Assembly: GCA_018398765.1 (NCBI GenBank)
Contig: JAHBMJ010000046.1
Coordinates: 62,001-126,000 of the forward strand
DNA from: Chromera velia
Lineage: Eukaryota
DNA: 64,000 nt
Reading direction: 5' to 3'
Below the pieces are notes generated by a model, which saw only the letters and a program-made list of their open reading frames with translations, ran no database searches and was not told the DNA's origin. Shown piece after piece: positions 24,159 through 27,636 of this stretch. The position numbers were made by a program, and so were the translations under genes. Within the stretch, counting starts at the first letter, position 1, and each line of letters starts with the position of its first letter.

Positions 24159-26110
24159 TCAGCGCTGTTCCCACCCCGTGACGAGACACTGGCGCAGAGT
24201 ATCGCAGTGCACATTGGGGAAGCTGGCCGCAACTCCAGTGAAACGAAGGTGAGACCAGTTCGGCAAGGAGAGGGCGACACTACATCCTCTAACGACGTTG
24301 TGATATTCTTTCGACTTCTCTTTCCTCTCACAGGAATCCCAGAAAACCTTTCCACTGATGCTGAGGAATCCGAGCTCGACGTGTGAGGAGGAAAGGTAGA
24401 CGGCGTTGGAGAGGGTGATCTTGTCGGTATGAACGAATTCCTTCTGCCCGTCAGGCTGTGCTTGTTCCAAGCGCTGAACGATCGAAAGGACCTTCAGATC
24501 GCTCATTCGGACCTGCAGACAGGATCGAGAACAAGTTCACCATGATGACACACATAAGACAATTGAGGAGAGACAGCAAGCTCGCCATTTTGTGTTCCGT
24601 CTCTTCGTTGGCAAACAGGATCAGTCTAAAATCAGATCAAGTGGGCGAAGCGCGTGTCCTTGCCGGCCTCGAAAAAAGGGGTTTCCCAGCTGGATTGTTA
24701 ACATAGAAGAAAGCAACAAAAAAGAGAGAAGTCTCCGTACCTTCAGATTCGCACAAGGCTTCGCAGGGACTTGCTTTGAGACCGGAGAGTGCTGCATGCC
24801 GGTCACGCAGACGGAAATGAGGAAACAGCCGTAGTCTTCCTCGCTCAGGGTTCTTGGGGCCCGGTAGGGAAGAACGCGAGCTTTCAAACGGGACTCGCCG
24901 TGAAGGAAGATGTCGAAAGCTTGGTTCGCGTTCACGGCAGTACGAATCGTCTCGTAGCGTGACAAGACTTGCAGAGGACGTTGAGCGGGCGGTTGGAGTG
25001 TTCTCTGAAGCTTGCAGGCTTCAAGAGGACACTGGGGGTAGACGCCTTCGACCATGTACAGCTCGTACTGGCGGGCAAGAACGGGCTTCTTCGCCAGCAG
25101 GCGCTGCTTCAGGTTGGCATCCACATCCAGGTGATCGATCATGCGATGATGACACCAGAGGTGCTCACCGACAAGAAGCAGCGGGTCGTGCTCGCCGCCC
25201 CCGATGGTGTACTGCGTTTCGATGGACGCCACCTTCTTCTGCGTAGAGCAGAAGGCCTCGTAGTGACCTTGCACCGACTGTTCACTCCCCGCAGCGCCTG
25301 CGCTGAAAAGACCCTCAATGCTGATGCCCCCTCCAGCATCATTTCTGCGTCCCTGCACCTGTCTGCTAGTGAAGGCTGCACCCTCAGTCTGCTGCAGACC
25401 GAGTTTGTAGTGTCTGTCCAGAGAGCCGCAATGGCCTCCCATGGGCACGTGCGTACCGATGATCTCAGAGAAGGCCTTTCTGTAGGCTGGATGGAGAGTA
25501 TTCGGATTCGAAGGAAACGGAAGAGAGTCCAGGGTCTCGACGTAGAAATTGGAAGGAGTCACCATCAGACGGCGTGCTTCCGAGGTGTCTGGAATCAACT
25601 CGGCCTTGACAACCAGGGTCTGCTTCTTCGACGCTGTTTGGACGAAAGAATGGAGAAGGGTGCGGGACCTGGTGTTGGTCATGCTCTCAGAGGCTGCTGC
25701 AGAGGCGGCGAGGGAGAGACCGTCAAGAGAAATCCCCATTCCTCCTGAAGAAGAGCTGACCATGTTCTCCATGTCAGTCACGGTCTTCTGTGAGAAGTCC
25801 TGGATCTCTCTGAAGGTGCTGACGGTATCTGTGAACGCCTTTCTCGTGTCGTAGAAGGTGCCTCCAGGAGGGAAAAATTGTCCCCTTCCCTGCACTCAAG
25901 AATACCGACACAGACAACCAGTAAGTGCGTCTGATCGCATCGTTAAATGCACATCCCTCCTGAAGACCACGCGCAGTCTTTGAGCATTTTTTCGCACCTT
26001 TCCATGTTTTTCTCTGTCTGAACGTTCTATCTGATTCTCCAAGCGGTCTGTACTTCCCCTTTTCCGTACACTCAGTCGGAAATTTTCTGGCAGGATGGCA
26101 ACGAAAACAC

Positions 26111-26190
<80 letters not shown>

Positions 26191-27636
26191 ACGTTCTTTG
26201 GGAGATAGAGAAGAAAAGGGACGACCATCTTGAACGCCCTCTTCGCGTCCACCCCTGCGCCCAGCAGGCGGGGATACTCAGGACAGTCGTAACGGGCCCA
26301 TGCGTCCTTCGCGATTTCACGGAGCGCGTCCTGGATGGAAGTCAGAACAAGAGTCTGATCAACTGGTCCCAGCATCCCAAGGAGCTCGTGGTTCTGCAGA
26401 GCTTCCTTCACCCCTCCCTCTCTGTTGATGGTGTGAGTGAGCTTTACCTCCAGATCCTGCTCCTTGTTCTGGACTCCCCGCAAGTTGATCGCGTCGTCCA
26501 TTGCCTTCGTCGCCCACTTTTGCTGCTGCTCAGCGATGAATTTCTTTTTGGCTTCAGCGACTCTGCCCGTCAGAACGTCACGGAAGGCAATTCGGCCTGG
26601 CTGGGGGTTGCGTGCTGCGAGGTCCTTTCCAGCCTTCAGCAGCCTGCCGAACAAATCCAACCAGACTTTAGGACGAAGGATCTGAGCTCTGGCATTCCTC
26701 TGTACCTCCAGGATGGCCTCTCTCATCCCTGTCAAGAAAGGCGCCATGCCGAGGTGGGGGTGAGCACCAGGGTCTGTGCCTTTGAAGAGGGGAGACATCA
26801 CAGGGGGGGTTTGATTCAGGCCTGAGTCCATCGGGAATCCGTACAGCTTTTTTTCGATCAGGGCACGGGTTGCAGGAATGATGGCGTCGGGAAGATTCTT
26901 GTCGTTTTTGATGGCAACGAGGACGTCGACTGCCTGCTGAAACCAGCCTGGGTGATTGCCAGCGAAGTTGGCGACAAAGAGGAAGCTCTGGGTGGGGAAA
27001 GCCTGTCTGATTTGGCTGCCGAAGTTCTGTTGAGCGAAGGCGACGAGGTCCAGGAGCTCCTTCAGAGTCTCCGAAGGCCTTCCACCGACCATGGAGAAGA
27101 CGAGCACCACGATGTTGGAGGAGAGAACACCAGGAATGACCTCAGCGAGAGTTACTGCTGCGTCAGTTGAAGTGGCCTCCGCGCCGATTCCCTCCAGAAC
27201 ATTCAGATTCAGGCCCTGTAGCTCAGCGTCACAAGAAAGTCCATGTCGCTGGAGTACCTGAGCCAAAGAGACTTCGACTTTGAGTCCATGCAGGCCCTGC
27301 AACGTGGATGGAGAACAACATACAAAATCAAAGCAAGAAAGCAACCCGTGGAAGAAACAGGCGTGAAGCGGGAACACTTTTGCCCACACTAACCTGCGTG
27401 AGGCAGCGACCGGCGTTGACGCCATCAGGGAATACCCCCGGTTCCCCGTTGACTGTGACGGAAGTGGTGAAACTTTTTCCACCACCCTTCGCACCAATGG
27501 TGATCCCCACTACAGCTGGTCTATCCGACTTCATTGAGGGGAAATGTTTCACCTGAGCGTCCACCGCCCCGCGGTCATGTTGTGAAATGAAGTCAGTGGA
27601 CTGCTGGAGTTGTTGGGGGAGGGGGCGAGGGGGCAT
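24159..27636 (-). CDS. GBP/atlastin (GB1/RHD3)-like GTPase fused to a MACPF-like domain; 3' end uncertain
   Basis: Exons 27636-27394, 27296-26193, 25889-24741, 24512-~24159 join in phase 0. GTPase part: P-loop GAKGGGKS, CLTQGLHG, NVLEGIG, FLFVANF. MACPF-like part: LLGAGVD, FYVETLDSLP...YRKAFSEIIGTHVPMGGHCGS, YTIGG, LARQYELY. Confidence 0.7.

What the first reader, a model, noticed from the sequence alone, without database searches (positions are those of the whole stretch)
24159..27636. GBP/atlastin-like GTPase fused to a cytosolic MACPF-like pore-forming domain
Seen: the spliced ORF has an N-terminal P-loop (GAKGGGKS) followed by CLTQGLHG, NVLEGIG and FLFVANF, then a helical stalk. After it comes a region with LLGAGVD, two Ser/Gly/Ala-rich amphipathic tracts (SSSSGGMGISLDGLSLAASAAASES; AGGGISIEGLFSAGAAGSEQS), F..TLDSLP...Y...F..IIGTHVPMGGHCGS, TIGG and a terminal helix ending in Y, then a beta-rich tail. 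There is no signal peptide. Known: GBPs carry GxxxxGKS, TKGIW, DTEG and RDF in this order. The MACPF signature is (Y/W)G(T/S)H(F/Y)x6GG with two TMH regions. Apicomplexan perforin-like proteins are secreted and lack a GTPase. Inference: an intracellular, GTPase-gated pore former, possibly for cell-autonomous defence or regulated death in a protist. I know of no description of this domain order.
Basis: partly seen in the sequence, partly recalled or inferred. Interest (0 to 1): 0.9.

Follow-up and report, generated by a model that had tools for sequence, protein, structure and literature searches.

The report
GBP-like switch fused to perforin domain
The alga Chromera velia transcribes one gene that joins a much-altered relative of the immune GTPase (GBP) domain to a predicted perforin-type pore-forming domain with no secretion signal, so it likely acts inside the cell as a self-regulated membrane puncher, switched by a nucleotide that is probably not GTP.

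Summary
The gene is real. It is Cvel_2636 (UniRef A0A0G4F113) of Chromera velia. Spliced contigs from three runs of one study each join all four exons, giving an intact 949-aa frame. Pfam and sequence searches found no relative. Residues ~388-693 are MACPF-like: ESM Atlas scored 0.96 to MACPF clusters, and a profile of 62 bacterial MACPFs scored z 8.0 against shuffles, z 5.6 with the signature masked. Residues ~5-235 resemble the GB1/RHD3 (GBP) G domain: Atlas-model TM 0.52-0.57, profile z 4.7. The GTPase claim needs correcting. The P-loop Lys/Ser and switch Thr are kept, but the Arg finger, G3 Asp and guanine-specifying G4 Arg-Asp are replaced, so an ATP-binding or inactive switch is likelier than a GTP-gated one. 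There is no signal peptide. Best reading: an intracellular pore former controlled by its own N-terminal domain (inferred, untested). Ten literature searches found no such fusion. It is a single orphan gene so far.

The parts
27637..27865 (-). 5' untranslated region covered by spliced contigs (lower bound; contigs cannot show the start)
   Evidence: table 8 (X1 record 7 to 27865, X3 record 10 to 27862)
27394..27636 (-). Exon 1, coding part: first ATG 27636; second in-frame ATG 27534 starts the 915-aa database model; out-of-frame ATG at 27578
27297..27393 (-). Intron 1, 97 nt, GT..AG
   Evidence: table 5: skipped in 4 of 4 runs
26193..27296 (-). Exon 2 (368 codons): G2-G4 region, helical region and the first MACPF motif in one open frame
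25890..26192 (-). Intron 2, 303 nt, with a CT/GT microsatellite
   Evidence: table 8: single records bridge it in 4 of 4 runs (joint itself not listed in table 5, repeat skipped); same junction as P0001
24741..25889 (-). Exon 3 (383 codons): bulk of the MACPF-like domain and start of the tail
24513..24740 (-). Intron 3, 228 nt, GT..AG
   Evidence: table 5: skipped in 4 of 4 runs
24159..24512 (-). Exon 4, coding part, ending in TGA
23500..24158 (-). 3' untranslated region; contigs run about 550 nt beyond 23500
   Evidence: table 8 (X2 record 8, X3 record 10)
26733..27522 (-). Divergent GB1/RHD3(GBP)-like G domain, about residues 5-235 (end approximate)
27472..27495 (-). G1 P-loop GAKGGGKS; Lys/Ser kept, Gly at the GBP arginine-finger position
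27189..27203 (-). G3-like NVLEG; Glu-Gly kept, Asp absent
26964..26972 (-). G4-like ANF in place of GBP RDF
26283..26732 (-). Helical region, about residues 236-385 (stalk-like; predicted at low confidence)
25056..26276 (-). MACPF-like domain, about residues 388-693
25677..25754 (-). TMH1-like tract with alternating hydrophobic/small residues around a D-G turn
25422..25472 (-). Degenerate MACPF signature F-x3-I-G-T-H-V-x6-G-S
25266..25334 (-). TMH2-like tract (weaker alternation than TMH1)
24162..25037 (-). C-terminal tail, residues 700-915, 9 Cys, no family assigned; candidate membrane- or ligand-binding module (inferred)

Best explanation
Cvel_2636 is one transcribed gene encoding a GBP-derived P-loop domain, a predicted helical stalk, a predicted MACPF pore-forming domain and an unassigned tail, and it likely works inside the cell as a pore former controlled by its own nucleotide-binding N-terminal domain, probably using ATP or no specific base rather than GTP. 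Shown: one intact spliced frame, no hydrophobic leader, motif order, and profile and embedding likeness to both folds. Inferred steps: (1) the protein is made in the cytosol and rests as a monomer with the N-terminal part restraining the MACPF domain; (2) the tail or the G domain recognises a target membrane; (3) nucleotide-dependent pairing of G domains, as reported for the GBP-like ATPase DFCP1, gathers subunits; (4) the two TMH tracts unfold into hairpins and form a beta-barrel pore; (5) the outcome is killing of an intracellular invader or of the alga's own cell or compartment.
For: One transcript: single contigs bridge all three introns in X2, X3 and X4, and X1 shows each junction on separate contigs. 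G2-G4 and the first MACPF motif share exon 2. MACPF: Atlas top hit 0.96 with 188 of 256 features shared, and 26 of 30 hits in the PF01823 set; glocal profile z 8.0 (0 of 300 global shuffles) and z 4.2 (0 of 300 local); signature masked z 5.6 (0/300) and 2.7 (2/300). The alignment is colinear, and the query keeps all six columns that were invariant with it included. TMH1 alternates hydrophobic and small residues and neither tract has a proline. G domain: 8 of 10 Atlas structure rows are clusters with GBP or RHD3 families at TM 0.52-0.57, row 1 being ZFYVE1/DFCP1; GBP profile z 4.7 and 4.2, 0 of 300 each; motifs masked z 3.1 (1/300) and 2.4 (3/300). P-loop Lys-Ser and G2 Thr are kept. DFCP1 has a GBP/atlastin-like fold, has Gly190 at a GBP1 catalytic-site position, binds ATP but not GTP, and dimerises on ATP (PMC10329651, passages). 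Allelic differences in the runs include no stop or frameshift in the frame, and only 2 of 18 fall in the MACPF third (P 0.041, post hoc).
Against: Ordinary tests are negative: no Pfam hit; local HMM score 3.9 bits, reached by 127 of 2000 local shuffles; hhalign probability 1%, within shuffle range; no local GBP hit. Atlas 'recognition' was 1918, under its 2300 bar, so the high score is weak evidence alone, and the Atlas model behind one search has pLDDT 0.50. The unaided AlphaFold model failed (pLDDT 36.5). The MACPF model (pLDDT 53) was built from a MACPF alignment, so its matches (Z 4.5-5.1, Foldseek E 0.02 or worse) are partly circular. G3 Asp is missing, which may abolish Mg-nucleotide use. 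The signature departs at 3 of 7 positions. No homolog shows conservation of the fusion. Nothing tested shows pores, location or a defence role.
Confidence: 0.45

Rival explanations
1. The N-terminal domain is a pseudo-NTPase that acts as a prodomain, guard or decoy; the MACPF part forms pores after proteolysis or ligand binding, without a nucleotide cycle (gasdermin-like logic, recalled).
For: Three family residues are replaced at once: G1 Arg, G3 Asp, G4 Arg-Asp. No local profile hit to GBP.
Against: P-loop Gly-Lys-Ser, G2 Thr and G3 Glu-Gly are all kept in an otherwise very diverged domain. DFCP1 is active with a changed P-loop (PMC10329651).
Confidence: 0.25
2. A non-lytic MACPF-fold protein: the GBP-like motor and MACPF scaffold remodel or tether internal membranes without opening pores, as astrotactin-type MACPF domains are thought to (recalled).
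For: Degenerate signature; weaker alternation in TMH2; nearest structural row for the G domain is the autophagy ATPase DFCP1.
Against: Both TMH tracts are full length (about 66 and 79 residues as delimited here), proline-free and rich in Ser/Gly/Ala, and TMH1 alternates clearly. Astrotactin-2 ranks below ten other MACPF chains, though within about 1 Z unit.
Confidence: 0.15
3. An offensive pore former released without a signal peptide against prey, competitors or a host.
For: Leaderless MACPF proteins that act outside the cell exist (recalled). Apicomplexan MacPerf proteins are thought to lyse host membranes (PMC4501334, section 55).
Against: A P-loop domain needs cytosolic nucleotide. No leader by hydropathy. 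Only 3 Cys in the MACPF part.
Confidence: 0.08
4. A recent or decaying chimera with no selected function.
For: Singleton cluster; no homolog. Allelic changes are 7 synonymous and 9 non-synonymous codons, not clearly different from neutral (P 0.115 for 7 of 18; 0.045 if one double change counts as synonymous).
Against: Intact 949-codon frame in two alleles, canonical splicing in 4 of 4 runs, and both folds' core motifs retained in register despite 9-19% identity to relatives. Domain borders do not fall on introns.
Confidence: 0.07

Closest known systems
MACPF/CDC pore-forming proteins (Pfam PF01823; perforin, C9, pleurotolysin B, TgPLP1, GNIP1Aa)
   Same: Order of elements: LG.G.D motif, TMH1, helix plus G-T-H signature, TMH2, GG, terminal helix. 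Ten best VIA-align rows are all MACPF chains (model built on a MACPF alignment).
   Different: Signature degenerate; below Pfam detection; no signal peptide; preceded by a P-loop domain; tail of no known family.
Guanylate-binding proteins, atlastin and RHD3/Sey1 (GB1/RHD3-type G domain; PF02263, PF05879)
   Same: G1-G2-G3-G4 positions in order, followed by helices.
   Different: No arginine finger, G3 Asp or G4 Arg-Asp; no CaaX end or C-terminal membrane anchor; a MACPF domain follows the helical part.
DFCP1/ZFYVE1, a GBP-like ATPase fused to FYVE domains
   Same: First row of the Atlas structure search (TM 0.52); Gly at the position matching the GBP1 catalytic site; precedent for a GBP fold switched to ATP and fused to another module (PMC10329651, passages).
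   Different: No FYVE domains; no sequence-level kinship was tested; DFCP1 is not a pore former.
Chromerid and apicomplexan MacPerf / perforin-like proteins
   Same: MACPF domain in an alveolate.
   Different: The four Chromera MacPerf proteins are treated as extracellular, with WSC and DERM domains, and no GTPase is mentioned (PMC4501334 section 55). Cvel_2636 was not found in its 16 supplement texts. The figure showing their architectures was not visible.
Stonustoxin-like proteins carrying a septin/AIG1-type GTPase (recalled, not verified)
   Same: MACPF/CDC fold and a P-loop GTPase in one chain, as I recall from domain databases.
   Different: As recalled, the MACPF comes first, belongs to another branch, and the GTPase is of another family. 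The source paper was not held and a search gave 0 papers.

Membership tests
MACPF (PF01823) | Reaches the Pfam PF01823 cut-off | tested here: not met
   0 families for exon 3 at E<=1 and for P0001 at E<=10
MACPF (PF01823) | Signature (Y/W)G(T/S)H(F/Y)x6GG (as given in the finding; recalled) | tested here: not met
   I-G-T-H-V-x6-G-S: 4 of 7 specified positions kept, in register
MACPF/CDC superfamily (fold) | Whole-domain likeness to MACPF proteins, in order | tested here: met
   Glocal z 8.0/4.2, masked 5.6/2.7; Atlas 0.96; local tests weak
MACPF/CDC superfamily (fold) | Bent four-stranded central sheet | tested here: inconclusive
   Strands at model 108-128, 181-203, 235-264, core blocks pLDDT 61-81, mean 53; Z up to 5.1; model leaned on a MACPF alignment; unaided model failed
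MACPF/CDC superfamily (fold) | Two TMH regions with amphipathic hairpin pattern | tested here: met
   Both align with bacterial TMH regions; clear alternation in TMH1, weaker in TMH2
MACPF/CDC superfamily (fold) | Oligomeric beta-barrel pore in membranes | not testable with these tools
   needs liposome and EM experiments
GBP / atlastin (PF02263) | Reaches the Pfam PF02263 or PF05879 cut-off | tested here: not met
GBP / atlastin (PF02263) | G1 GxxxxGKS | tested here: met
   GAKGGGKS, residues 14-21
GBP / atlastin (PF02263) | Catalytic arginine in G1 (role recalled) | tested here: not met
   Gly17; Arg in 18 of 18 aligned GBPs
GBP / atlastin (PF02263) | G2 threonine (TKG) | tested here: met
   TQG aligns with TKG
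GBP / atlastin (PF02263) | G3 DxxG (DTEG) | tested here: not met
   NVLEG: Asp replaced by Asn or Val depending on a one-residue gap; Glu-Gly kept
GBP / atlastin (PF02263) | G4 RD, guanine specificity (role recalled) | tested here: not met
   ANF aligns with RDF; RD in 15 of 18 GBPs
GBP / atlastin (PF02263) | C-terminal CaaX or transmembrane anchor (recalled; not in all members) | tested here: not met
   Ends in TGWEQR; the only 19-residue hydropathy peak is inside the G domain
GB1/RHD3-type G-domain fold | Fold and motif order of the large G domain followed by helices | tested here: met
   TM 0.52-0.57 for 8 of 10 rows on a pLDDT 0.50 Atlas model, AIG1 rows 0.44-0.46; glocal z 4.7/4.2, masked 3.1/2.4
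GB1/RHD3-type G-domain fold | Nucleotide binding, hydrolysis and dimerisation | not testable with these tools
   needs biochemistry
Apicomplexan perforin-like proteins | Signal peptide | tested here: not met
   Maximum 11-residue hydropathy -0.12 from the first ATG, 1.38 from the second where it is the P-loop strand
Apicomplexan perforin-like proteins | C-terminal APC-beta repeats (recalled) | tested here: inconclusive
   No Pfam hit on the tail; no usable model of it

The most novel reading that the evidence does not exclude
A one-chain immune weapon in a free-living relative of the malaria parasites: a GBP-derived nucleotide switch that assembles on an invader's membrane and directly drives its own perforin-type domain into pores, merging into one protein the sensing and perforating steps that animals split between GBPs and separate pore formers.
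Probability: 0.3. Interest if true: 0.85.

Novelty: new variant of a known kind. Interest (0 to 1): 0.66.

Why it matters
If the reading holds, this is a MACPF pore former whose trigger is built in and nucleotide-driven rather than calcium, complement, pH or a partner protein. It would give a single purifiable protein in which to test how a GBP-type motor can be coupled to pore formation, and a candidate for cell-autonomous defence or regulated death in a unicellular alveolate. It also shows that MACPF and GBP-like domains can sit below Pfam and phmmer detection, so inventories of chromerid perforins may be incomplete. The weight is limited by its being one orphan gene with no functional data.

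Tried and rejected
No homolog: exon 3 among proteins of 672-2000 aa (only 7986 candidates scored), exon 3 against all 1.84 billion representatives, residues 1-400 among proteins of 503-1602 aa (shorter and longer proteins not searched), metagenome, prokaryote and viral contigs. No paralog in the window. No whole genome was held, so no genome-wide paralog search. PDB sequence searches gave only chance rows. PADLOC and NCBIfam: 0 families. The single-sequence AlphaFold model was unusable and its fold searches uninformative. Local HMM and hhalign tests against the bacterial MACPF set were not significant. One search compared the alignment with a bacterial MACPF and says nothing independent about the query. 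Search for other fusions: a MACPF-profile search of 591-2000-aa proteins returned 10 proteins, none of the 9 others with a GTPase family (7994 candidates scored); 0 MACPF hits in 118 GBP-motif loci and 0 GBP hits in 120 MACPF-motif loci, each at most about 3.6 kb. These are small samples, not proof of absence. 'Two separate genes' is rejected (shared exon 2). An intron-2 donor at 26225, my first guess, is rejected. A transmembrane helix at residues 93-119 is rejected: it aligns with the hydrophobic core of the GBP G domain. Runs X5 and X6 hold next to none of the words and were never laid. No complex prediction was run. The earlier-findings look-ups returned nothing bearing on this gene.
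Full report
Gene model. The region holds a four-exon gene on the minus strand: 27636-27394, 27296-26193, 25889-24741, 24512-24159. The frame is 2850 nt, 949 aa, without internal stop, and from residue 35 it equals P0001. The databases name P0001 as an uncharacterised protein of Chromera velia CCMP2878, UniRef A0A0G4F113, gene Cvel_2636, a cluster of one. 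Residue numbers below are those of the 915-aa P0001. Four runs of one study were laid. They are flagged only as guessed RNA, but they skip introns 1 and 3 at GT..AG ends in 4 of 4 runs. In X2, X3 and X4 one contig carries all four exons; X1 shows the junctions on separate contigs, with intron-retaining pieces beside them. The intron-2 joint is not in the joint table because a microsatellite was skipped, but in all four runs a record continues 7 letters past 26200 into exon 3, which fixes the donor at 26192 as in the database model. Contigs are assemblies, not single molecules, but the G2-G4 region and the first MACPF motif also share one open exon, so two genes are not a tenable reading.

No ordinary search recognises the protein. 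Pfam found nothing on exons 1-3 or the whole protein and one chance-level row on exon 4. NCBIfam and PADLOC found nothing, PDB sequences only chance rows. Homolog searches returned the protein itself alone, and contig scans nothing. The N-terminal part was not run against the full representative library, and no genome was held for a paralog search.

MACPF part. The ESM Atlas placed exon 3 next to MACPF clusters: 0.96, 188 of 256 features, 26 of 30 hits in the PF01823 set; its recognition value of 1918 is under the 2300 bar, so this is not enough alone. For a second test I collected prokaryotic MACPF domains with a signature pattern: 62 of 120 loci formed one cluster, and 12 of 12 checked were PF01823. 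A profile of the 62, without the query, gave weak local results: 3.9 bits, reached by 2 of 2000 global and 127 of 2000 local shuffles, and hhalign probability 1% though on the signature in register. Scored end to end over the domain, residues 370-720 reached z 8.0 against global shuffles and z 4.2 against shuffles within 10-residue windows, 0 of 300 each; two control regions gave z -0.8 to 0.1. Because the set was selected by its signature, I masked those 17 columns: z 5.6 (0 of 300) and 2.7 (2 of 300) remained. Alignments with 34 and 60 of these domains are colinear from LLGAGVD through TMH1, F-x3-IGTHV-x6-GS, TMH2 and TIGG, at 9-19% identity. The signature keeps 4 of 7 positions. TMH1 alternates L-I-M-G and L-L-A-A-A on one face; TMH2 alternates less clearly; neither has a proline. 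A model of residues 382-701 built on that alignment has mean pLDDT 53 with a core of 61-81. Its ten best VIA-align rows are all MACPF chains at Z 4.5-5.1 (top row rmsd 7.3 over 207 residues) and Foldseek ranks pleurotolysin B first at E 0.02. These matches are partly circular and low, and count as compatibility only. The unaided model failed (pLDDT 36.5; searches). I put the MACPF fold at about 90%.

N-terminal part. By features the Atlas gave only leads (0.81-0.86, various P-loop GTPases). By structure of its own pLDDT 0.50 model, 8 of 10 rows were clusters carrying GBP or RHD3 families at TM 0.52-0.57, row 1 being ZFYVE1/DFCP1, and 2 were AIG1 at 0.44-0.46; 4 of 10 met the tool's bar for a name, 2 of them AIG1. 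I collected GBP domains by a motif scan: 84 in-frame matches from 118 loci, 42 with an upstream P-loop, 18 long enough to use; 6 of 6 checked were PF02263. Their profile gave no local hit, but end to end residues 1-300 scored z 4.7 and 4.2 (0 of 300 each), controls z -1.2 to -0.2, and z 3.1 (1 of 300) and 2.4 (3 of 300) with the motifs masked. I put GB1/RHD3-type ancestry at about 80%. In register, the P-loop Lys-Ser, G2 Thr and G3 Glu-Gly are kept. The G1 arginine (18 of 18) is Gly, the G3 Asp is Asn or Val, and G4 Arg-Asp (15 of 18) is Ala-Asn. The roles of these residues in GBP catalysis and guanine recognition are recalled, not from a call. The protein therefore fails membership of the GBP and atlastin families, and GTP gating is doubtful. 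DFCP1 is the useful precedent: a GBP/atlastin-like fold with Gly190 at a GBP1 catalytic-site position that binds ATP, not GTP, hydrolyses it and dimerises on it (PMC10329651, passages).

Targeting and selection. Neither ATG is followed by a hydrophobic leader, the only long hydrophobic stretch lies in the G-domain core, and there is no CaaX end. The 216-residue tail has 9 cysteines and no assignment. The runs differ from the window at 18 coding positions shared by all four: 7 synonymous and 9 non-synonymous codons, no stop. That is not clearly below neutral (P 0.115, or 0.045 if one double change counts as synonymous), while 2 of 18 in the MACPF third is a post hoc P of 0.041.

Mechanism. The best-supported reading is an intracellular pore former regulated by its own N-terminal domain (0.45). 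Shown are the single frame, the two folds at the confidence given, and the lack of a leader. Inferred are cytosolic location, restraint by the N-terminal part, nucleotide-driven pairing, pore formation and a role in defence or regulated death. The main rival keeps the pore but makes the G domain a dead guard or prodomain (0.25). Non-lytic remodelling (0.15), leaderless release (0.08) and a functionless chimera (0.07) follow.

Comparison with print. Woo et al. (PMC4501334; passages, section 55, and a term search of 16 supplement texts) describe four Chromera MacPerf proteins among extracellular proteins, with WSC and DERM domains, and mention no GTPase; Cvel_2636 is not in the supplement texts, but the figure of their architectures was not visible and may bear on this. 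Ten searches: MACPF + guanylate-binding protein + fusion, 0; Chromera + MACPF, 0 (24); MACPF + GTPase domain, 3 papers, 2 listed (25); perforin + Chromera velia, 14, 10 listed (26); MACPF + GTPase + domain architectures + fungi, 1 (42); MACPF + GTPase + stonustoxin, 0 (48); pore-forming + GTPase fused + perforin, 0 (49); guanylate binding protein + MACPF, 5 (58); Cvel_2636, 0 (67); MACPF + GTPase + fused, 16, 13 listed (86). I read passages of PMC9334734, PMC10003378, PMC5536079 and PMC7371996, none describing such a fusion; the rest I saw as listings only. The library lacks most subscription papers. From memory, some stonustoxin-like proteins carry a septin/AIG1-type GTPase after the MACPF domain; I could not check this. 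If right, MACPF with a GTPase in one chain has precedent, though not this order or these families. Small sampling searches found no second fusion.

Verdict. Observation confirmed; interpretation partly supported, with 'GTPase-gated' replaced by 'controlled by a degenerate GBP-type domain, probably ATP-binding or inactive'. It is a new variant of known kinds: an architecture I could not find described, in one orphan gene, directly testable with purified protein. Interest 0.66.

Noticed in passing
window 28291-29139 +: Single-frame 282-aa ORF head-to-head with the gene, about 650 nt from its first ATG; in the protein collection as a singleton, no convincing family, hydrophobic C-terminal end. 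Contigs of the same runs reach 28139-28200. A co-regulated partner is possible but untested.
   Followed up: partly
window 23309-23663 and 29560-29920: An inverted pair of about 355 nt, 65% identical (E 9e-27), flanks the two head-to-head genes; the left copy overlaps the 3' untranslated region of the MACPF gene. Could be an old mobile-element end or a dispersed repeat.
   Followed up: partly
window 28009-28040 and 28059-28090: Two 32-nt copies, 72% alike, 50 nt apart, in the stretch between the two divergent genes.
   Followed up: no
window 27576-27578 -: Out-of-frame ATG between the two in-frame start candidates; may affect which N-terminus is made.
   Followed up: no
window 14586-17222 +: 879-codon open frame with a 6-pyruvoyl-tetrahydropterin synthase domain at residues 275-402 only; the rest is unassigned.
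   Followed up: no
window 12979-14337 - and 20702-21187 +: An intronless MFS transporter and an exon of a zinc-binding dehydrogenase: ordinary neighbours.
   Followed up: no
P0002-P0007: Prokaryotic MACPF proteins fused to hemopexin repeats (PF00045), two of them with transposase-type domains in front.
   Followed up: no
window 23500-27865: The four runs share about 25 single-letter differences and two small insertions in the 3' region relative to the window, so they carry another allele or strain.
   Followed up: partly
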